From UHGV virus genome UHGV-0439402: a stretch of DNA of 7,036 nt; one strand, written 5' to 3'. The translations under genes and the position numbers were made by a program. Shown in pieces: positions 1 through 7,036 of this stretch. The stretch is from a virus. Numbering within the stretch: the stretch's first letter is position 1; each line of letters begins with the position of its first letter. The notes below the pieces were generated by a model. The model was not told the origin of the DNA and made no database searches. It saw only the letters and a list, made by a program, of their open reading frames with translations.

Positions 1-758
1 CCGAAGCGGAAAAAAAGGATACTTCCAATATACCTGTGTCTGGCTCTTTAAGTGACGAGGAATGGGAAGAATTTCAAGAAAGGATGGAAGAAATAAATGG
101 AAGTTCTGACGAAACTGGCTTATCAACCTTCGTTCTTGATGATGTATTTCTGGATTATATGTATTATCATTTCCGTGACCTCGCTGTTGCTGATATCGCA
201 TCTGCATCAAATGCTAAAAAGGCGTCTTTGGATGAAGTACAGGATGTGGATGGCGTGTTGGAATCTGTTGTACCGTATGAAGATATATCCACATATTCGT
301 TACTATCTGCCAATGCTGAGAATGATTATGTTAATTGCGTCCGTTTTGATTGCGTGGTTGATGGTACGCCGTGTACTCTCCTGTTCCCTTCCACTGACCG
401 GGCGTCCCTTTTTATAGATTCCGATAAACAGCTCTGGAATGTGTCGGATTCCGTAGTTCAGGGCCTTGTGGTCTATGACAGTTTTGCTCCCAGGTCGGAC
501 GAAGGGACGTTGGTATTTATGGCCCCTTGCCTTGGCAATAACTTTTCAAATAACCACAACTATGGAAGTCCCAATTACTTCCGCCGTTACTACTGGTCAG
601 GTGGTTCTTATGACCGCCTGAGTTACACGGATACATATGTTATAGTTCGGGTTGAATCTGCGCCGTTCACGTTCTATTCGGATGATATTATCCAGTATGC
701 TTGTATCCTGATTGGAGGTGCTATTCTGTTATGTTTATTGAAAAAGTCACTGCGTTAA
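1..758 (+). CDS. pIII-like adsorption/minor coat protein paralog P2 (5'-truncated at window edge; probably continues from 6985..7036 if genome is circular); acidic N-region, C-terminal TM anchor + basic tail (…IIQYACILIGGAILLCLLKKSLR)
   Basis: Reading frame (codons 3-5, 6-8…) is open from base 1; listed ORF 36..758 begins at an internal GTG. C-terminal hydrophobic anchor followed by KKSLR. Shares motif NYF-RRYYWSGGSYDRLSYTD with NYYVDGYYSSGDFRLSTD of the 5174..6511 protein. Junction with window end is in frame (t + cc = TCC Ser) giving SVATPS, identical to SVATPS after the leader of the 5174 ORF. Confidence 0.6.
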   Translation, partial: EAEKKDTSNIPVSGSLSDEEWEEFQERMEEINGSSDETGLSTFVLDDVFLDYMYYHFRDLAVADIASASNAKKASLDEVQDVDGVLESVVPYEDISTYSLLSANAENDYVNCVRFDCVVDGTPCTLLFPSTDRASLFIDSDKQLWNVSDSVVQGLVVYDSFAPRSDEGTLVFMAPCLGNNFSNNHNYGSPNYFRRYYWSGGSYDRLSYTDTYVIVRVESAPFTFYSDDIIQYACILIGGAILLCLLKKSLR

Positions 759-877
759 TCGGCCTTGTCCCTGTCCAGTTTGAACCGCTTGTATATGTGA
801 TGGGTTTTATCCTCTTTTTGTGGCTCATTGATGGGTTCTTATGGCTTGCAAAATATCTGGTCTGCGGAGGTAGGTGA
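731..877 (+). CDS. small membrane protein, 49 aa (MFIEKVTALIGLVPVQFEPLVYVMGFILFLWLIDGFLWLAKYLVCGGR); below ORF-track size cutoff
   Basis: ATG at 731 preceded by GGAGGTG (714-720, spacing ~11); single strong hydrophobic segment; overlaps end of upstream gene; stop TGA (875-877) overlaps GTG (874-876) of next ORF (GTGA coupling). Confidence 0.3.
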   Translation: MFIEKVTALIGLVPVQFEPLVYVMGFILFLWLIDGFLWLAKYLVCGGR

Positions 878-1041
878 TTGATGTGTTTTCGGAAGTCAAT
901 GTAGTAGTTGATTGGATATTCACACAATTAACATCCTTTGTCCGTTTCCTTTGGAATGACTGCGCCTGGGTTGGGGTATTGGTGATATCCTTTCCCCTAA
1001 TCCGGCGAGTTATTAATATATTTAAACAAATTTTATCTTAA
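874..1041 (+). CDS. small hydrophobic protein, 55 aa (…VNVVVDWIFTQLTSFVRFLWNDCAWVGVLVISFPLIRRVINIFKQILS); pVII/pIX-like position immediately upstream of coat gene; start GTG 874 or GTG 883
   Basis: GGAGG at 866-870 / AGGTGA at 872-877 upstream; ends 16 nt before the strong SD of the coat gene; hydrophobic core plus basic tail; not in ORF track because <60 aa. Confidence 0.4.
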   Translation: MIDVFSEVNVVVDWIFTQLTSFVRFLWNDCAWVGVLVISFPLIRRVINIFKQILS

Positions 1042-1057
1042 AAAGGAGGTATCTTTC

Positions 1058-1336
1058 ATGTTAAAAATCCGTTGTTTCCTTCGTAAGTATCGGGCCGTTC
1101 CTGTCACGTCTGTGGCGGTTGTGTCCATGTCGTTCCCGGCGTTTGCTAGTGACGCTAGTCCGGCTGGCATGACTTCCCTGCTGGGTTCCTTCACGGAGGT
1201 GGCCGCGTGGATGTGGGCTGAGATTGGCAAGCTTCTTACTTGGGTTCTTGGCCAGCCTATCCTGCTCCTTGCAATGTCCCTGTTCTTTGTAGGGGCCATT
1301 GTATCATTCTTCATCCGTGTATTTCATTCTGTGTAA
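1058..1336 (+). CDS. major-coat-like protein precursor with cleavable signal peptide (MLKIRCFLRKYRAVPVTSVAVVSMSFPAFA|SDASPAG…), mature ~62 aa with acidic N-terminus, hydrophobic core, C-terminal RVFHSV
   Basis: Very strong SD AAAAGGAGGT 8 nt upstream of ATG; n-/h-/AxA signal-peptide architecture; small size and composition typical of inovirus pVIII-type coat proteins; followed by a paralog and a terminator. Confidence 0.7.
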   Translation: MLKIRCFLRKYRAVPVTSVAVVSMSFPAFASDASPAGMTSLLGSFTEVAAWMWAEIGKLLTWVLGQPILLLAMSLFFVGAIVSFFIRVFHSV

Positions 1337-1518
1337 GGAGGTAATTGATTATGACAGAACTTTTAAATGCGTTTACCCAGGTTGCGGCCTGGATGTGGTC
1401 TGAAATCGGCCTGCTTCTTGGCTGGATTCTGAACCAGCCTATCCTGCTCCTTGCAATGTCCCTGTTCTTTGTGGGGGCGATTGTATCCTTCTTCATCCGT
1501 GTATTCCACTCGGTTTGA
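1190..1518 (+). repeat. tandem diverged duplication of coat-gene core (copy 1 ~1190-1336, copy 2 ~1372-1518, 147 nt each)
   Basis: Direct nucleotide alignment, e.g. cagcctatcctgctccttgcaatgtccctgttctttgt occurs in both; mirrored spurious minus-strand ORFs 1033..1314 and 1311..1496 have near-identical translations, confirming the duplication. Confidence 0.8.
1351..1518 (+). CDS. leaderless major-coat-like paralog, 55 aa (MTELLNAFTQVAAWMWSEIGLLLGWILNQPILLLAMSLFFVGAIVSFFIRVFHSV)
   Basis: SD TAAGGAGGT 7 nt upstream of ATG 1351; ~90% nt identity to the 3' two-thirds of the preceding gene (1190-1336 vs 1372-1518); missing from the ORF track only because <60 aa. Confidence 0.6.
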   Translation: MTELLNAFTQVAAWMWSEIGLLLGWILNQPILLLAMSLFFVGAIVSFFIRVFHSV

Positions 1519-1526
1519 TGCTTTAC

Positions 1527-1562
1527 TTCCTAGGGGTATAAAAGCCCCTAGGAACCTTTTGG
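1527..1562 (+). terminator. rho-independent terminator-like hairpin after coat genes (stem TTCCTAGGGG/CCCCTAGGAA, loop TATAAAAG, then CCTTTTGG)
   Basis: 10-bp GC-rich perfect inverted repeat 1527-1536/1545-1554 followed by T-run; positioned like the post-gVIII terminator of Ff phages. Confidence 0.45.
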
Positions 1563-1571
1563 AGGTTTGCT

Positions 1572-1730
1572 ATGATTGAGTTTCTAACTGCTTTTATGGA
1601 TATATTTTTATACCCGGTATCCCTTACGATAGATTTTGAAAATCCCTTATACTATGGCATGATTGCCATATTGGTTACGGCTGGTATTGTATGTATTGTT
1701 AGGAGGTTGATTATTGCATGTATATCATAG
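1572..1730 (+). CDS. small membrane protein, 52 aa (MIEFLTAFMDIFLYPVSLTIDFENPLYYGMIAILVTAGIVCIVRRLIIACIS); pVI-like position upstream of gene I
   Basis: SD GGAGGT 4 nt before ATG 1572; two hydrophobic segments; overlaps start of Zot gene by 13 nt (translational coupling). Confidence 0.4.
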   Translation: MIEFLTAFMDIFLYPVSLTIDFENPLYYGMIAILVTAGIVCIVRRLIIACIS

Positions 1731-2476
1731 GTTTCATTATGGTTCTGCTGTTCTGCGTGTTCATGTTCTTTGCCTACCATGCGTTTAAGTATCGCAACCC
1801 TTACAAGCTCTATATGTGTTTTGGGCGCAAAGGTTCTGGCAAGACTACTCTTATGACAAAGCTTGCTTTGCAATATCAAAAAAAGGGCTGGAATGTTTTC
1901 TGTGACCGTGAAATTCCCGGCTGTATACAGTTTGAAACAGAGGACTTCGGCCGCTATCAGTTCCCACCTAATTCCCTTATCCTGGTTGACGAAGTGGGGC
2001 TTGTCTGGGATAACCGCAACTTCAAAAACTTCCCTGAGCATGTAAAGGTATATTTCAAATATCAGCGTCAATACCAACATGTTGTATACTTATTTAGCCA
2101 GTCCTTTGATATCGATAAAAAGATACGTGACCTCACCGACCATTTGTACATTGTCCAGAACTTTTTCAACTGTTTTTCGATTGCCCGGCGTGTAACTAAA
2201 TCCCTCACCGTTGTCCATGCGGATAAATCATCCCAGGGTGAAAGCAAGATAGTTGATGATTATAACATTGACTCGTTATTGTTTGCCCCCTTCGGCTCAG
2301 TCCGCTTTACATACATACCAAAATATGCAAAATATTTCAAAAGCTTTGACCCTCCCCAGCTCCCATCCTTTGAGGGTTCCCCCCTCCCTGGATTGCCTGC
2401 CCTGAGCAAGCGCCAGACGCTGGTCGGCGCGGCGAAGGAAAGGCAGGAAATGCTGAGATTCTGGAAAAAGCACTGA
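1718..2476 (+). CDS. Zot / inovirus gene I (pI)-family P-loop NTPase, phage assembly/export protein; N-terminal TM segment
   Basis: Walker A GRKGSGKTT, Walker B LILVDEVG; recalled M13 pI segments align: GKLGSGKTLVSV, LLVLDECGTWFNTRSWNDKER ~ LILVDEVGLVWDNRNFKNFPEH, and IIFLVQDLSIVDKQAR ~ VVYLFSQSFDIDKKIR. SD AGGAGGT upstream. Confidence 0.85.
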   Translation: MYIIGFIMVLLFCVFMFFAYHAFKYRNPYKLYMCFGRKGSGKTTLMTKLALQYQKKGWNVFCDREIPGCIQFETEDFGRYQFPPNSLILVDEVGLVWDNRNFKNFPEHVKVYFKYQRQYQHVVYLFSQSFDIDKKIRDLTDHLYIVQNFFNCFSIARRVTKSLTVVHADKSSQGESKIVDDYNIDSLLFAPFGSVRFTYIPKYAKYFKSFDPPQLPSFEGSPLPGLPALSKRQTLVGAAKERQEMLRFWKKH

Positions 2477-2477
2477 C

Positions 2478-2750
2478 CTACAACTTCACGTTTCCCTTAA
2501 CGTCCCCAACAATGACGCCCTTGTTGTTGTCCCCTATAACAACTCCGTTGCTGTTCTGGACGTGTATTCCCGGCTTCTCTCCTGCCTGCATGTCCTGGGC
2601 TATTAGGTCTTTGATATATCCGCTCAGTTTTGTATATCCCTTTTTATTCATGTGCGCAATGACTTCTGGATACTCTTCTTCACGGATGTAGACTTTTACT
2701 GTTTTATATACTTCTTTGTTGTATTCTCTTATATATTCTTGTTTTTTCAT
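2478..2750 (-). CDS. ribbon-helix-helix (CopG/Arc/MetJ-like) DNA-binding regulator, ~90 aa, with a C-terminal Gly/Val-rich tail (listed ORF extends to a GTG at 2783)
   Basis: MKKQEYIREYNKEVYKTVKVYIREEEYPEVIAHMNKKGYTKLSGYIKDLI fits a β-strand–helix–helix pattern (β-strand KTVKVYI). Only minus-strand gene, divergent from the small-ORF/SSB/Rep cluster and facing palindromic repeats. Confidence 0.6.
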   Translation of the reverse strand: MKKQEYIREYNKEVYKTVKVYIREEEYPEVIAHMNKKGYTKLSGYIKDLIAQDMQAGEKPGIHVQNSNGVVIGDNNKGVIVGDVKGNVKL

Positions 2751-2759
2751 AACCTCACC

Positions 2760-2835
2760 TATAGGCCTATATACAAAATTCACATATATAGGGCTATATA
2801 TTTAGTATATATGCCTATATACATATAGTCCTATA
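2760..2835. promoter_or_regulatory. four imperfect-palindromic 12-bp boxes TATA(G/T)(G/T)(G/C)CTATA at 2760-2771 (TATAGGCCTATA, perfect palindrome), 2787-2798, 2808-2819, 2824-2835; candidate operator array
   Basis: Read directly; located between divergent RHH gene and + strand small ORF; spacings 27, 21, 16 bp. Confidence 0.5.
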
Positions 2836-2880
2836 TATGTTATACTGTAGTTACAAGTTAATAAATGATACTTAAAGTTC

Positions 2881-2947: not shown

Positions 2948-2980
2948 AAACGATTCAAGAATTTGAAAGGGGAAAATGAT

Positions 2981-3154
2981 ATGACCAAAAAGGAAAAACA
3001 GGTTTTTCAGAACTACAAGGATATTGCCAGTAGTAAGTTGGTGGAAGCGTTCAATTCTGGTGATGCTGATGCAATTACCAGGGCAACGGATTCATTCGTT
3101 CAGCTTACTTCCCTCTGGGATGAACTTAACAACATAGTGGAACAAGGGGCCTAG
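2981..3154 (+). CDS. hypothetical small protein, 57 aa (MTKKEKQVFQNYKDIASSKLVEAFNSGDADAITRATDSFVQLTSLWDELNNIVEQGA)
   Basis: ATG 2981 with AAAGGGGA SD (spacing ~7); listed ORF starts at an upstream TTG. No recognisable motif; position between repressor region and SSB. Confidence 0.5.
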   Translation: MTKKEKQVFQNYKDIASSKLVEAFNSGDADAITRATDSFVQLTSLWDELNNIVEQGA

Positions 3155-3159: not shown

Positions 3160-3295
3160 TCCCCTTTAAAGCTACTACCCTATGGGTAACGGTCACAAGT
3201 CCGTGTGAAAGCTGAGTGAAGGTTCTTTTGTTGGTTCGGTCTGTTTGTCAGTGGCTATCGAGAAACTGACGGCTGTTGTTAGGCAGAGATACTGC

Positions 3296-3325
3296 CCATC
3301 CGGGTTGATGGAATGCCCCGGATGG
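3296..3325. other. hairpin CCATCCGGG-(12 nt)-CCCGGATGG upstream of SSB gene
   Basis: Perfect 9-bp inverted repeat; candidate ssDNA structural signal (packaging or complementary-strand origin). Confidence 0.35.
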
Positions 3326-3362
3326 TACGTTGATAATAGAATAATGAAAGGAAGGTATTATT

Positions 3363-3608
3363 ATGAAAGTAAAAGTATTAGGCATTCAGTCGGTTGATTA
3401 TATCAGCCGTAAGACTGGTAACCCCGTAAAGGGGGTTACACTGCATTCAGCATTTAAGGATGCGCAGGTGGAAGGGGAATCCGTTTCCTCCATCTTCGTC
3501 AGCGATAACCTGAATGTTAAGTGTGTCGCTGAGATTCGCCCCGGTATGCTGGTTGATGTGGAATACAATAACCGTGGTTATGTCTGTGACCTGGCTATCT
3601 GTAAGTAA
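3363..3608 (+). CDS. candidate ssDNA-binding protein (inovirus gene V/G5P-like), 81 aa
   Basis: SD AAAGGAAGGT upstream; size (81 vs 87 aa), N-terminus MKVKV… (cf. M13 gpV MIKVEIK…), SRKTGNP (cf. TRSGVSRQGKP) and RPGMLVDV (cf. APGLYTV) are suggestive; adjacent to Rep. CDS itself confident, function moderate. Confidence 0.5.
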   Translation: MKVKVLGIQSVDYISRKTGNPVKGVTLHSAFKDAQVEGESVSSIFVSDNLNVKCVAEIRPGMLVDVEYNNRGYVCDLAICK

Positions 3609-3632
3609 TCTGCTTCTTTCATTTCTCCTTTT

Positions 3633-3661
3633 GCTGGCTGTCCTGTCCTGGTTCAGCCAGC
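3633..3661. other. hairpin GCTGGCTG-(13 nt)-CAGCCAGC just after SSB stop
   Basis: Perfect 8-bp inverted repeat read directly. Confidence 0.3.
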
Positions 3662-3809
3662 CCCTTGCGGACAATATCCGCATTTCCTTGTCCGCTCCCA
3701 GTTCCAGGCCAGACAGCGGTTTAGATTCGTCATTACGTGGTATGCCTACGTTGTGAAACTGTAACAATTTTTAAACTAGTTACTGCATGGATGCGCCCGG
3801 CCTGGCCGG

Positions 3810-3842
3810 GAAGTTGCTAGTATAGTATTACCTAGCAACTTC
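3810..3842 (+). promoter_or_regulatory. rolling-circle (+)-strand origin stem-loop: 11-bp stem GAAGTTGCTAG/CTAGCAACTTC with 11-nt loop TATAGTATTAC containing CRESS nonanucleotide TAGTATTAC (3823-3831; predicted nick T3829^A3830)
   Basis: Perfect inverted repeat read directly; loop matches the circovirus/nanovirus ori nonanucleotide exactly; ~110 nt upstream of a Rep with HUH motifs I-III; preceded by palindrome CCCGGCCTGGCCGGG (3796-3810). Confidence 0.7.
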
Positions 3843-3925
3843 TGTCGCAAAGCCTGACAAGCCTTGTAAAACCAGGGCCTGCCAGTCCGCGACATTAAAT
3901 TGTCGCAAAGTCGCTGTCGCGAAAA
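3843..3925 (+). repeat. iterons TGTCGC(A/G)AA: TGTCGCAAAG at 3843 and 3901, TGTCGCGAAAAC at 3915, directly 3' of the ori stem
   Basis: Read directly; related copies (TTTCGCAAATAG 4980, TGTCGCGCACC 5026, TTTCGCGAAAC 5063) recur downstream of rep. Confidence 0.45.
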
Positions 3926-3949
3926 CAAGAAATAAAGGGGAATGGGAAC

Positions 3950-4948
3950 ATGGAAAAAGATTCACAGAGCCGTAAATGGCAGATTACAATTAACAATCCT
4001 GCTGATAAGGGATTCACCCATGAAAGAATCCGGCAGGGATTAGAGTCCATGAAATCAGTTATCTACTGGTGCATGGCTGACGAGGTAGGCGAGAATGGAA
4101 CCTATCACACTCACCTGTATTTACAGGGAAAAGGCGCTGTCCGCTTCTCCACCATCAAGAAACATTTTGAAGGTGCCCATTTTGAGATGGCAAAGGGCAC
4201 CGCAATGCAGAACCGGGAATATGTCTCTAAGACTGGTAAGTGGGAAAATGATAAGAAGCATGAGACTTGTGTAGACGGAACCTTTGAGGAATGGGGCGAG
4301 ATGCCCGTGGAAAGACAAGGTGCCAGGAATGACATAGCTGACCTACACGCCATGATAAAACAGGGCTTAAGCAACTACGATATCATGGAACAGGTGCCGG
4401 AAGCAATGCTTATGCTTGATAAGATAGAACAGGCCAGGCAGACCATTGTCCAGGAATCCTATAAGACTAAATGGCGTGATATGTCCTGTTACTATATCTA
4501 TGGTGATACGGGGACAGGAAAGACACGTTCCATCATGGAAAAATACGGCTATGAACATGTATTCCGTGTTACGGATTATAGCCATCCATTTGACAATTAC
4601 CGGGGCCAGGATGTGGTCATCTTCGAAGAGTTCCGTTCCAGTTTCCGGGTATCGGATATGCTTAACTACCTGGACGGCTATCCGCTGGAATTGCCTTGCC
4701 GCTATGCAAACAAGTATGCCTGTTATACAAAGGTCTACATAATCAGCAACATACCGTTGTCTGAACAATACCGTAACCAGCCACAAGAAACATTTGAAGC
4801 ATTTCTTAGGCGGTTGAATGGTGTGTTGCACTATACGGGCCATGGTGTTGAAAAGAGTCGTATAGAGTTGATAGGAAGTGGTTTTCGCCTGTTAACAAAT
4901 GGTGAAATGACTCCCTTTGACAAAATGGAAGTGAGTATGATATTATGA
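3950..4948 (+). CDS. rep: CRESS-DNA-type replication initiator: HUH endonuclease + SF3 helicase (332 aa)
   Basis: Motif I WQITINNP (aa10-17), motif II YHTHLYLQ (aa52-59), motif III REYVSK with catalytic Tyr91, Walker A GDTGTGKT (aa185-192), Walker B VVIFEEF, motif C ISN; order and spacing identical to circovirus/nanovirus/pCRESS Reps. Confidence 0.9.
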   Translation: MEKDSQSRKWQITINNPADKGFTHERIRQGLESMKSVIYWCMADEVGENGTYHTHLYLQGKGAVRFSTIKKHFEGAHFEMAKGTAMQNREYVSKTGKWENDKKHETCVDGTFEEWGEMPVERQGARNDIADLHAMIKQGLSNYDIMEQVPEAMLMLDKIEQARQTIVQESYKTKWRDMSCYYIYGDTGTGKTRSIMEKYGYEHVFRVTDYSHPFDNYRGQDVVIFEEFRSSFRVSDMLNYLDGYPLELPCRYANKYACYTKVYIISNIPLSEQYRNQPQETFEAFLRRLNGVLHYTGHGVEKSRIELIGSGFRLLTNGEMTPFDKMEVSMIL

Positions 4949-4987
4949 TATAGATAGCAACTATATCGTTAAACTACTGTTTCGCAA

Positions 4988-5046
4988 ATAGTTGCAGACA
5001 GGTGCGCTCCTACGGGAAAATGATTGTCGCGCACCTTGCAACTACC
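4988..5046. other. long imperfect hairpin TAGTTGCA(gac)AGGTGCGC-(21 nt)-GCGCACCTTGCAACTA downstream of rep, flanked by outer inverted repeat CGTTAAAC (4967-4974)/GTTTAACG (5082-5089) and palindrome TTTCGCGAAA (5063-5072)
   Basis: Inverted repeats read directly; 16 paired positions with a 3-nt bulge. Confidence 0.4.
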
Positions 5047-5128
5047 ACCCTTAGGGATGGGTTTTCGCGAAACATTGGGCCGTTTAACGAATAGTTGGTA
5101 TTTATAACAACAATTCTATATAAATCGA

Positions 5129-5173: not shown

Positions 5174-6511
5174 GTGAGGTGTAAACGCTTCATGGCTGTT
5201 CTTGTTGCGCTTTCCTTATCGGTACTGTTTGTCTTTCCTGCGTTTGCATCCGTTGCTACGCCTTCCAATGCCTTACCGTCTGAATCATATCTTGGTTTTG
5301 TTCAGTCATTGGACGAATATGCGGATGTTGCAACATCCAGTAATGCGACTCTATCTCAAGATTATATGGAAACGGATGGTTTTGACGCATTGGAAGCCCC
5401 TGTCCTTATGTCGTCTGGTGACGATTCCGTTGTTAATACGGTCAATCTTACCTCTGTCCAGATGTGTCTGTCTTATTATGATATGGCTGGGGTCATCCGT
5501 TATAAGGAGGTATGGTTGGATAAGAATGGTTATGCTTCCATGTCACTTCCTTCTGACTATGCATCACCTATATGGTTTGGTTTTGTCCTGCATAAAGGTG
5601 CATTACCTCCGGCTGGTAAATATAAGATGTCTGTACATTTTGGTAGTAACACTAACATTGTATATCAGTCCAGTTCCATCTGGTTTGGTGTCAGGCGTAA
5701 TAATGTAAGTCAGCAGGAATCCAATTATTATGTTGATGGTTATTACTCCTCTGGCGATTTTAGGCTTTCTACTGATTTATCCATTGGTGCTTCTACAAGC
5801 CAGCTTAATATATCTAATTTTTTGGCTTATGACTCTCCTGCACCGCCATATGGTGGCTATGTCAGCATTAATTTTACCCGTCTTTCCGGTGATGCGCCTG
5901 TACAGGGTGGTTCCCCTGATTCCGGCAATGTTGACCAGGACATTAACCAGAGTATTTCTAATAATACGGCCCAGCAGGTGGAACAGGGTGATACTATCAT
6001 CGAATTAATAAAAAATACCATTCAGACTATTTCTTCTCAGCTTACGGCTTTTTGGAATCAGCTTGCTGGAGAGTTCACTAATCTTTACAATAAAATGAAC
6101 CAGCAACATTCTGAGCAATTACAGGCCGACCGTCAAAATACAGACGATATGATAGCCGCTGGGGAATCGAATACCACGGACATTATCAATAACAACAACG
6201 CCAATACCGATAAAATCACCAACGGTTATGATAACTCTGGTATGCTCTCTGAGAATGACCGATTAAATAATTCCCTTGATGAATACCAGAAAAAAGAGGA
6301 TGAAGTTTTTAATCAGGCAAAGGATAAAGTCAACTCGTTTGAGTATGGCAATCACTTCGATAAGTTCACGGCTCCGCTGGCTGATATATCCTTTTTCCTT
6401 ACGGGTATCTATGATGGTTTGGGCTCCTTGAATGTTCCGATTGCGTTTGCTCTTACGTTGTCTGTATCTCTGCTTGCAATCGGTTACTATCGGTTTAAAT
6501 CTGGTAGTTAG
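5174..6511 (+). CDS. pIII-like adsorption/minor coat protein P1: signal peptide (MRCKRFMAVLVALSLSVLFVFPAFA|SVATPS), N-terminal domain, N/Q-rich probable coiled-coil, C-terminal TM anchor (…PIAFALTLSVSLLAIGYYRFKSGS). Listed ORF starts at GTG 5165, which abuts the SD; GTG 5174 or ATG 5192 more likely
   Basis: SD GGAGGTGG 5161-5168; type-I topology (leader + C-terminal anchor) as in g3p; shares the YY-SGxxxRLSTD motif and SVATPS leader junction with the other paralog. Confidence 0.7.
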   Translation: MRCKRFMAVLVALSLSVLFVFPAFASVATPSNALPSESYLGFVQSLDEYADVATSSNATLSQDYMETDGFDALEAPVLMSSGDDSVVNTVNLTSVQMCLSYYDMAGVIRYKEVWLDKNGYASMSLPSDYASPIWFGFVLHKGALPPAGKYKMSVHFGSNTNIVYQSSSIWFGVRRNNVSQQESNYYVDGYYSSGDFRLSTDLSIGASTSQLNISNFLAYDSPAPPYGGYVSINFTRLSGDAPVQGGSPDSGNVDQDINQSISNNTAQQVEQGDTIIELIKNTIQTISSQLTAFWNQLAGEFTNLYNKMNQQHSEQLQADRQNTDDMIAAGESNTTDIINNNNANTDKITNGYDNSGMLSENDRLNNSLDEYQKKEDEVFNQAKDKVNSFEYGNHFDKFTAPLADISFFLTGIYDGLGSLNVPIAFALTLSVSLLAIGYYRFKSGS

Positions 6512-6743: not shown

Positions 6744-6983
6744 ATGCGTGAGGTGATTACGTTTTGTGTTAATATTTTGGTGCACATTGTAGAATGTTTG
6801 TTTGCTTTGGATATAGGAGGTTATAGCTTTGGTGATTTTCTTACGGCGTGTCTTGTTGTGTCGGTGTTCATATCTTCCCTTGTGGTATCCTTCAAGGGGG
6901 CCGGCGGTTCCCCTGGTTCCGCTGTCCGACCGCCCAGGCCGCATAAACAATCGAAGAGCCGTTCATCTGGTAAGCCTGATTAG
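6744..6983 (+). CDS. small membrane protein, 79 aa, two TM segments and basic Pro/Ser-rich C-tail (RPPRPHKQSKSRSSGKPD)
   Basis: ATG 6744 with AAGGGG upstream (listed ORF uses TTG 6738); TM + basic tail composition. Confidence 0.55.
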   Translation: MREVITFCVNILVHIVECLFALDIGGYSFGDFLTACLVVSVFISSLVVSFKGAGGSPGSAVRPPRPHKQSKSRSSGKPD

Positions 6984-6984
6984 T

Positions 6985-7036
6985 GTGTTCCTACTTATGT
7001 TTTCGGTTCCCGCTTATGCTTCGGTTGCTACGCCTT
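6985..7036 (+). CDS. 5' end (signal peptide MFLLMFSVPAYA|SVATP…) of a pIII-like gene truncated by the window end; in frame with 1..758
   Basis: GTG 6985 / ATG 6997 just after stop 6981-6983; nucleotide and peptide similarity to the 5174 ORF leader (gtctttcctgcgtttgcatccgttgctacgcctt vs cggttcccgcttatgcttcggttgctacgcctt). Confidence 0.5.
   Translation, partial: MFLLMFSVPAYASVATP

What the first reader, a model, noticed from the sequence alone, without database searches (positions are those of the whole stretch)
1058..1518. Tandem duplicated major-coat genes: one with a 30-aa cleavable leader, one leaderless
Genes 1058-1336 and 1351-1518 share ~90% nt identity over 147 nt (mature core …VAAWMW-EIG-LL-W-L-QPILLLAMSLFFVGAIVSFFIRVFHSV). 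The first encodes a classic leader (…SFPAFA|SDASP). The second starts directly at MTELLNAF… with its own strong SD. Filamentous phages normally have one major coat species, inserted either Sec/leader-peptidase-dependently (M13) or leaderlessly via YidC (Pf3). Encoding both types side by side suggests a two-component capsid or regulated switching of coat composition. The pair is followed by a strong terminator hairpin (1527-1562), implying high, coordinated expression.
Basis: seen in the sequence. Interest (0 to 1): 0.6.

Follow-up and report, generated by a model that had tools for sequence, protein, structure and literature searches.

The report
Tandem coat-protein genes in gut filamentous phage
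A filamentous phage of the gut bacterium Enterocloster bolteae carries two adjacent, long-maintained versions of its main coat-protein gene, one with an export signal and one without, which suggests a mixed-subunit filament not reported for this kind of virus in the papers I could search.

Summary
Genes 1058-1336 (92 aa, with leader) and 1351-1518 (55 aa, leaderless) are paralogues. They are 84% identical in protein and 78-82% in DNA, not ~90%.

The window is a closed 7-kb inovirus genome with a Zot/pI ATPase, an RstB-like protein and a Rep. Both proteins occur exactly in Enterocloster bolteae. The family is pVIII-like: a 61%-identical homologue from a phage with imaged virions scored 97% against IKe G8P by HHpred in a published table.

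The second copy is not a recent neutral duplicate:
- dN/dS is 0.14 between the two copies and 0.04 between leaderless orthologues.
- Every leaderless copy has its own ATG and Shine-Dalgarno site.
- A GC-rich hairpin follows only the last copy of each array.

Across about 45 related loci there are arrays of one, two or three copies, in both orders. Some genomes have only leaderless copies.

The 5' halves keep type-specific identity across lineages. The 3' halves, which encode the membrane and DNA-facing part, are homogenised within each genome.

Best reading: a co-transcribed set of coat subunits that build a mosaic filament, entering the membrane procoat-style and Pf3-style. Presence of both in virions is untested. 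Regulated switching is not supported.

The parts
731..877 (+). 48-aa leaderless small membrane protein (MFIEKVTALIG...), candidate pVII/pIX-type tip protein
   Evidence: ORF list. Homologue in the E. bolteae phage is 'gene 4', HHpred 81% to phiLf G7P. Conserved in L011.
874..1041 (+). 55-aa leaderless small membrane protein with a basic C-terminus (RRVINIFKQILS); candidate minor coat protein and the alternative major-coat candidate
   Evidence: Conserved family. No coat-family hit in PHROGs. Only a partial, weak profile match to the coat core (12.5%).
1043..1050 (+). Shine-Dalgarno site AAGGAGGT of copy A, 7 nt before the ATG
1058..1147 (+). Leader (signal peptide) of copy A, 30 codons, ending FPAFA|S
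   Evidence: Published 'Signal peptide' feature for a homologue. The leader is hypervariable between lineages while the core is nearly invariant.
1148..1336 (+). Mature part of copy A (62 aa, 6732 Da predicted) plus stop codon. It comprises a 7-aa surface extension SDASPAG and the 55-aa core.
   Evidence: (helices 36-64 and 67-91, pLDDT above 90 in the core)
1335..1342 (+). Shine-Dalgarno site AAGGAGGT of copy B, overlapping the TAA stop of copy A, 8 nt before the ATG
   Evidence: The same stop/Shine-Dalgarno overlap (TA[AG]GGAGGT) is seen in most of the other arrays.
1351..1518 (+). Copy B: leaderless 55-aa coat paralogue (6257 Da predicted with Met1)
   Evidence: exact protein is WP_207717775.1, found on 90 contigs
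1528..1553 (+). GC-rich hairpin (10-bp stem, 6-nt loop) followed by AACCUUUUGG; terminator or attenuator closing the coat array
   Evidence: A hairpin at this position follows only the last coat copy in all lineages examined, and the stem sequences differ between lineages. Not called by the terminator scan.
1572..1730 (+). 52-aa leaderless membrane protein overlapping the start of pI; possibly an old, diverged paralogue of the coat core
   Evidence: hhalign 69%, E 4.4e-5, 51 collinear columns; controls 12.5% and 0.6%
1718..2476 (+). pI/Zot-like assembly ATPase
   Evidence: Pfam Zot, E 3.3e-6, above the gathering score. phrog_25712 at 7e-27 and the Zot-like phrog_197 at 2.5e-9.

Best explanation
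The two genes are a co-transcribed array of paralogous pVIII-type coat-protein genes of a temperate inovirus of Enterocloster bolteae. Both are translated from their own strong ribosome-binding sites.

Copy A is made as a procoat. Its 30-residue leader is removed by signal peptidase, leaving a 62-aa subunit with a short, variable, acidic N-terminal extension.

Copy B is made directly as a 55-aa subunit. It inserts N-out/C-in without a leader, as Pf3 coat does through YidC-type insertases.

Both share a virtually identical C-terminal half: hinge QP, a transmembrane and inner-layer helix, and R50/H53 facing the DNA. Gene conversion keeps this half uniform, so either subunit fits the same pI-driven assembly site and the same helical lattice. 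The two differ in the outward-facing N-terminal half.

The virion sheath is therefore most likely a mosaic of two subunit species (three in some relatives). It would be a natural counterpart of engineered 'type 88' fd phage.

Shown here: paralogy, conservation, purifying selection, the expression signals, and the mosaic evolutionary pattern.

Inferred: the cleavage site, the insertion routes, and the incorporation of both proteins into virions.
For: Element identity:
- Zot/pI, an RstB-like protein and Rep are present.
- Gene order matches the Enterocloster inoviruses that secrete 500-800 nm filaments.

Coat identity:
- Window A is 61% identical (E 8e-40) to 'gene 6' of those phages, which scored 97.2% against IKe G8P by HHpred.
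- Sub-threshold hits to Pfam Phage_coatGP8 (4 of 37 members, best E 0.0022) and to PHROG 'major coat protein' (5 of 24 members, best E 0.0016).
- The AlphaFold model has two long helices with a hinge at QP and pLDDT above 90 in the core.

Function of copy B:
- dN/dS is 0.14 against A, with dS 0.9.
- Against its orthologue in L004 there are 19 nucleotide but only 2 amino-acid differences, dN/dS 0.04.
- ATG plus Shine-Dalgarno site are conserved in every lineage.
- The exact A and B proteins occur on 93 and 90 contigs, including a 6.4-Mb E. bolteae chromosome.

Array as one unit:
- Spacers are 9-17 nt, and in most arrays the stop codon overlaps the Shine-Dalgarno site.
- The hairpin follows only the last copy.

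Both types can act as the coat:
- Leader-only genomes: L001, L002, L024, L032-34, L036-38, L041.
- Leaderless-only genomes: L010/L030, and L011 in a Lachnoclostridium isolate with a full phage module.
- Both kinds are documented.

Subfunctionalisation rather than plain redundancy:
- In the 5' half, same-type copies in different genomes are closer (0.289) than paralogues within one genome (0.338). Only 3 of 2000 label permutations reach the observed contrast.
- In the 3' half, paralogues within a genome differ by 0.109 against 0.22 between genomes.
- In most mixed arrays (all but L039/L040 and L043) exactly one copy has Lys21; the others have Leu21, often with Lys17.
- Most leaderless copies carry Glu3; five have Ala3.

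Mosaic sheaths are physically possible: type 88 vectors give them (PMC6024655).
Against: - No protein-level data exist for any phage with two copies. The only imaged relatives list a single coat gene.
- Direct database homology to known coat families is below threshold here. There was no match in PDB sequences and none by Foldseek.
- The C-terminus has only one Arg and one His, fewer basic residues than fd pVIII.
- Genomes with only one type show that neither type is indispensable, which also fits plain redundancy.
- The type-specific 5' signal rests on about ten partly related genomes and 84 nucleotides.
- Another small protein (874-1041) has a more basic C-terminus and is not excluded as a sheath component.
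Confidence: 0.55

Rival explanations
1. Dosage or redundancy only. The extra copy or copies simply raise the supply of the most abundant virion protein. The differences between copies are neutral, and whether a copy keeps a leader is incidental.
For: - Copy number varies from 1 to 3, and both orders occur.
- The 3' halves are homogenised, as in dosage repeats.
- Single-type genomes exist.
- L019 appears to have lost one copy by recombination between the repeats.
Against: - The 5' halves stay distinct and type-specific across lineages, despite conversion next door.
- The Lys21/Leu21 partition recurs in most mixed arrays.
- Leaderless copies have usually acquired an acidic Glu3.
- The leader/leaderless mix is retained at dS of about 0.9.
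Confidence: 0.17
2. The leaderless paralogue is a specialised low-copy protein, either a tip/cap subunit (pVII/pIX-like) or an assembly initiator or terminator. It would not be part of the sheath.
For: - The Ff tip proteins are small, leaderless and helical.
- The 52-aa gene before pI looks like an older leaderless derivative of the coat core, so such recruitment may have happened before.
Against: - B has a ribosome-binding site as strong as that of A and lies upstream of the hairpin.
- Its DNA-facing half is kept identical to that of A.
- In L010/L030 and L011 the only coat-family genes are leaderless, so they must form the sheath there.
- Other small leaderless proteins (731-877, 874-1041, 1572-1730) are available for tip roles. 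One homologue scores 81% to G7P.
Confidence: 0.15
3. Copy B stays in the host membrane and has a non-structural role. Possibilities are exclusion of superinfecting phage, modulation of pI assembly, or buffering the toxicity of copy A.
For: It is a small hydrophobic protein of unknown fate, and nothing here shows that it leaves the cell.
Against: Strong conservation of the same lattice- and DNA-facing residues as in A (R50 invariant, H53 nearly so), and leaderless-only genomes.
Confidence: 0.08
4. Recent neutral duplication, a pseudogene, or an assembly artefact.
For: The copy is absent from bajarodino viruses 2 and 30. Tandem repeats can be mis-assembled.
Against: - The copies differ at 22% of bases, with 18 synonymous and 9 non-synonymous codon differences.
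- The pair is present in independent assemblies, including isolate genomes.
- It is intact in all lineages examined.
- dN/dS is 0.04-0.14.
Confidence: 0.02

Closest known systems
pVIII/G8P procoat of Ff and IKe phages
   Same: A small precursor with a cleavable leader ending in a small-x-small motif, an amphipathic N-terminal helix, a hydrophobic helix and a basic C-terminal end. The gene is followed by a hairpin. A published HHpred table gives 97% to IKe G8P for a 61%-identical homologue.
   Different: The host is Gram-positive and there is no secretin. There is only one Arg and one His at the C-terminus. The gene sits just before the small gene and pI, not before gIII. It is present as an array of 1-3 paralogues rather than a single gene.
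Pf3 major coat protein (44 aa, leaderless, YidC-only insertion)
   Same: Copy B has no leader, an acidic N-tail (Glu3, Glu18), one transmembrane helix and a short basic C-tail. This is the layout that lets Pf3 coat insert N-out through YidC and the membrane potential.
   Different: No detectable sequence homology to Pf3 coat. The N-tail is about 29 residues against 18. Copy B coexists with a leader-bearing paralogue in the same operon.
Engineered type 88 fd display vectors (two gene VIII copies in one genome)
   Same: Two coat genes in one filamentous phage genome give a mosaic sheath (PMC6024655).
   Different: That system is artificial, both of its copies carry leaders, and it is unstable without selection. 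Here the arrangement is natural, old and under purifying selection.
Enterocloster inoviruses of Burckhardt et al. 2023 (PMC10061712)
   Same: Same host genus, same gene order, homologous coat (61%), Zot and RstB-like proteins. Virions were secreted and imaged.
   Different: Their table lists one coat gene with a leader, and a different Rep. Tandem or leaderless coat genes are not mentioned.
Paired paralogous major capsid proteins of archaeal filamentous viruses (Lipothrixviridae, Tristromaviridae); from my own knowledge, not checked here
   Same: The filament is built from two paralogous helical subunits.
   Different: Those are unrelated proteins, wrap double-stranded A-form DNA, form obligatory heterodimers, and do not assemble at a membrane.
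Ff pVII and pIX tip proteins
   Same: Small, leaderless, hydrophobic helical virion proteins.
   Different: They are about 32 aa, not recognisably similar to pVIII, present at about five copies, and encoded upstream of gVIII. Copy B is 84% identical to the coat core.

Membership tests
Inovirus major coat protein (pVIII/G8P-like) | Encoded in the structural module of a filamentous phage that has a pI/Zot ATPase | tested here: met
   Zot lies at 1718-2476. GenBank relatives are classed as Inoviridae. Gene order matches the Enterocloster inoviruses.
Inovirus major coat protein (pVIII/G8P-like) | Small protein forming one long helix, with an amphipathic N-terminal part and a hydrophobic part | tested here: met
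   Mature lengths are 62 and 55 aa. The AlphaFold model has helices 36-64 and 67-91 with pLDDT above 90 in the core.
Inovirus major coat protein (pVIII/G8P-like) | Sequence or profile homology to a characterised coat protein | tested here: inconclusive
   Pfam PF19199: 4 of 37 members, best E 0.0022, below the cut-off. phrog_1646: 5 of 24 members, best E 0.0016. Nothing in PDB. A published HHpred result gives 97.2% to IKe G8P for a 61%-identical homologue.
Inovirus major coat protein (pVIII/G8P-like) | Basic C-terminal residues that face the DNA | tested here: inconclusive
   Arg50 is invariant and His53 nearly invariant, but there is only one fully basic residue.
Inovirus major coat protein (pVIII/G8P-like) | The most abundant protein of the virion | not testable with these tools
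   No proteomic data. Indirect support only: strong Shine-Dalgarno sites and a hairpin after the array.
Procoat type (M13-like, leader removed by signal peptidase) | N-terminal signal peptide with a small-x-small cleavage motif | tested here: met
   Copy A: basic n-region, hydrophobic core, FPAFA|S conserved across homologues. Judged by inspection, not with a predictor. Copy B lacks it.
Pf3 type (leaderless coat) | No leader; translation starts at the mature N-terminus; acidic N-tail, one transmembrane helix, basic C-tail | tested here: met
   Copy B has an in-frame stop 6 nt upstream of its ATG. Its layout is Glu3, Glu18 / transmembrane helix 30-49 / R50, H53.
Pf3 type (leaderless coat) | Sequence homology to Pf3 coat | tested here: not met
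   No Pfam, PHROG or PDB match to Pf3-type coats. The resemblance is in layout only.
Pf3 type (leaderless coat) | YidC-dependent, Sec-independent insertion | not testable with these tools
   Inferred from the layout and from PMC2172118.
Intrinsic terminator after the coat gene | GC-rich stem-loop followed by a U tract | tested here: inconclusive
   The stem is strong and its position is conserved. The U tract has only 4 U, and the site is not reported by the scan.

The most novel reading that the evidence does not exclude
This clade of Lachnospiraceae inoviruses builds filaments from two or three coat paralogues that enter the membrane by different routes. It also preserves, within one protein family, each step of the transition between procoat-type and Pf3-type coats: duplication, loss of the leader (by starting either at the core Met or at the cleavage site), partial gene conversion, and loss of one type. 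Older leaderless duplicates, such as the 52-aa protein before pI, may be the source of minor virion proteins.
Probability: 0.35. Interest if true: 0.75.

Novelty: new variant of a known kind. Interest (0 to 1): 0.6.

Why it matters
Filamentous phages are the textbook case of a capsid made from one repeated subunit. M13 procoat and Pf3 coat are the two model substrates for membrane insertion.

A natural phage that keeps both kinds of coat in one operon, over a long evolutionary time, would have three uses:
- It would show that mixed sheaths are a natural strategy and not only a display-vector trick.
- It would give a matched pair of near-identical proteins for comparing leader-dependent and leaderless insertion in a Gram-positive cell.
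- It would show how leaders are lost and how minor virion proteins may arise.

The host is a common human gut commensal whose related inoviruses are secreted in vivo, so the surface composition of these filaments may also matter for phage-host and phage-immune interactions.

Tried and rejected
- Structure search: Foldseek of the AlphaFold model against viral (BFVD) and PDB libraries gave no matches at all, as expected for a bare helix.
- PDB sequence search with the family profile gave only chance membrane-helix hits.
- Pfam and PHROGs on the single window proteins gave nothing significant. Only scanning many family members brought out weak coat hits.
- The whole-core NJ tree grouped paralogues by genome and at first suggested repeated independent duplications. 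Splitting the gene into halves showed this came from conversion of the 3' half.
- L019 as proof that a leaderless copy suffices. It is a clean recombinant of the two L018 copies in a 99.7%-identical background. It could equally be an assembly collapse across the 35-nt identical stretch, so I did not rely on it.
- Internal initiation at Met38 of copy A: there is no Shine-Dalgarno site upstream in the window.
- Read-through or frameshift fusion of A and B: the frames differ and stops intervene.
- VirB2/TrbC pilin and DUF3487 hits were weak, and the element has no conjugation genes.
- Literature searches for tandem or paralogous coat genes in inoviruses found no report. The library is incomplete.

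Full report
**What is in the window**

The + strand carries ORF 1058-1336 (92 aa) and ORF 1351-1518 (55 aa). The second aligns without gaps to residues 38-92 of the first, with 46 of 55 residues identical and E 1e-32.

The 27 differing codons split into 18 synonymous and 9 non-synonymous.

Copy B cannot be extended upstream, because an in-frame TAA lies at 1342-1344. It is also in a different frame from A.

Each gene has a perfect AAGGAGGT site 7-8 nt before its ATG, and the site for B overlaps the stop codon of A.

A 10-bp GC-rich hairpin at 1528-1553 follows B (-22.4 kcal/mol, z -3.3). Only four U follow it, and the terminator scan did not report it.

**What the element is**

The window is a closed circle. 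Its ends are contiguous in L003 and in a 98.7-kb contig, L012.

It encodes a Zot/pI ATPase (1718-2476), a Rep with Viral_Rep and helicase domains (3950-4948), and an 81-aa ORF (3363-3608) whose bajarodino counterpart is annotated as RstB-like. It also encodes large signal-peptide proteins and several small membrane proteins.

GenBank relatives are inoviruses from rodent and lemur faeces.

The exact A and B proteins are RefSeq 'hypothetical proteins' of Enterocloster bolteae. They occur on 93 and 90 contigs, including a 6.4-Mb chromosome. Related prophages sit in E. hominis, Lachnospiraceae AM93-12TA, Lachnoclostridium An14 and a Clostridiaceae genome assembled from a metagenome.

Burckhardt et al. 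[quoted passage not shown]

**Is it the coat protein?**

Direct evidence here is weak:
- Sub-threshold Pfam Phage_coatGP8 hits for 4 of 37 members.
- PHROG 'major coat protein' hits for 5 of 24 members.
- No PDB sequence match and no Foldseek match.

The AlphaFold model is two long helices hinged at the conserved Gln-Pro, with pLDDT above 90 in the core.

The strongest support is external. 'Gene 6' of the E. bolteae ATCC BAA-613 phage is 61% identical to window A over its full length. It scored 97.2% against IKe G8P by HHpred in the authors' Table S5, with a signal peptide noted.

Position, size, strong Shine-Dalgarno sites and the hairpin all agree with this. I take pVIII-family membership as likely (about 0.85) but not proven.

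**Comparative census**

A word-indexed search found 121 clusters. About 90 are 91-99 aa with hypervariable leaders, and more than 20 are exactly 55 aa and leaderless. One of the latter occurs on 708 contigs.

Across about 45 loci I found the following arrangements:
- One leader copy: L001, L002, L024, L032-34, L036-38, L041, L042, L044.
- Leader then leaderless: the window, L003-5/7/8, L009, L012-14, L016-17, L026-29, L039-40, L043.
- Leaderless then leader: L015, L018, L025.
- Leader then two leaderless: L006, L020-23, L031.
- Leaderless copies only (55 aa plus a 62-63-aa form that starts at the former cleavage site): L010/L030, and L011. L011 is a full phage module in an isolate genome.

Every leaderless copy has its own ATG and Shine-Dalgarno site. 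Spacers are 9-17 nt, and in most arrays the stop codon overlaps the Shine-Dalgarno site. The hairpin follows only the last copy.

**Selection and history**

dN/dS between A and B is 0.14, with dS 0.9.

Leaderless orthologues (window against L004) differ at 19 bases but only 2 residues, giving dN/dS 0.04. This is as constrained as the leader copies, at 0.05.

A whole-core tree groups paralogues by genome, but the two halves of the gene tell different stories:
- Codons 1-28: same-type copies from different genomes are closer (0.289) than paralogues within one genome (0.338) or unlike types (0.348). Only 3 of 2000 within-genome label permutations reach the observed contrast.
- Codons 29-55: paralogues within a genome differ by 0.109, against 0.22 between genomes.

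So the duplication is old. The half that encodes the membrane and DNA-facing helix is kept uniform by gene conversion, and the half that encodes the exposed helix keeps two identities.

In most mixed arrays exactly one copy has Lys21 and the others have Leu21, often with Lys17. The exceptions are L039/L040 and L043, where no copy has Lys21. Most leaderless copies carry Glu3; five have Ala3.

The genomes are partly related and the segments are short, so the statistics are indicative only.

**Mechanism**

I conclude that both genes are expressed coat subunits.

- A enters the membrane as a procoat and is cut after FPAFA.
- B has the Pf3 layout: an acidic N-tail, one transmembrane helix and a short basic C-tail. 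It should insert without a leader through a YidC-type insertase.

Because the inner halves are identical, either subunit should fit the same lattice. Engineered type 88 phage show that mosaic sheaths assemble.

Leader-only and leaderless-only genomes show that each type can serve as the sheath. This argues against B being only a tip protein. Other small leaderless proteins are available for that role, and one homologue scores 81% to G7P.

Switching by regulation is unlikely, because nothing separates the genes.

Incorporation of both proteins into virions remains an inference. I put this mechanism at 0.55.

**Rivals**

- Pure dosage (0.17).
- A specialised low-copy role for B (0.15).
- A non-structural membrane role (0.08).
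- A neutral duplicate or an artefact (0.02; contradicted by the comparative data).

**Novelty**

I found no report of natural tandem coat paralogues, or of mixed leader and leaderless coats, in inoviruses. The library searched is incomplete.

The Enterocloster paper lists one coat gene and does not discuss coats in its main text.

This is a new variant of a known kind of protein, and it is ready for a simple mass-spectrometry test (predicted masses).

Noticed in passing
window 1572-1730: The 52-aa leaderless protein that overlaps the start of pI begins MIEFLTAF, against MTELLNAF in copy B. Its family aligns end to end with the coat core: hhalign 69%, E 4.4e-5, 51 columns. Controls with another small-protein family gave 12.5% and 0.6%. 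It may be an old, diverged coat paralogue.
   Followed up: partly
window 3225-5081 versus L003 and L012: The structural module is 99-100% identical to a prophage in a 98.7-kb contig, but the region holding the Rep gene (Viral_Rep plus helicase) is replaced. Relatives L039-41 carry a REP_ORF2-G2P Rep, and L039 has a tyrosine integrase next to the same structural module. The replication modules are swapped.
   Followed up: partly
window ~6829-7036 joined to 1-758: An ORF crosses the circular junction. It has a signal peptide ending VPAYA|SVATPS. The DNA around the cleavage site (6998-7036) is 77% identical to that of the 448-aa pIII-like gene (5226-5264). The start codon is unclear: possibly TTG 6829 with an AGGAGGT site, matching the long N-terminus of 'gene 3' in the E. 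bolteae phage.
   Followed up: partly
window 2760-2840: Four copies of a 16-nt unit (TATAGGCCTATATACA) and a 23-nt inverted repeat lie between the divergent genes 2478-2783 (-) and 2963-3154 (+). They are candidates for operator or origin repeats.
   Followed up: no
L019 2812-2979 versus L018 5001-5472: L019 is 99.7% identical to L018 but has a single leaderless coat gene. Its 5' part matches copy 1 of L018 and its 3' part matches copy 2. This is either a deletion by recombination between the repeats or an assembly collapse.
   Followed up: partly
L010/L030 8181-8369 and L011 7797-7988: Coat genes of 62-63 aa start with Met placed at the former signal-peptide cleavage site (MEGEPTA..., MEPSAPTA...). 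This is a second, independent way of losing the leader.
   Followed up: partly
window 874-1041: A 55-aa leaderless protein has a segment VVVDWIFTQL that resembles VAAWMWSEIG of the coat core, and a more basic C-terminus than the coat. The profile match is weak (12.5%). Its role is unknown.
   Followed up: partly
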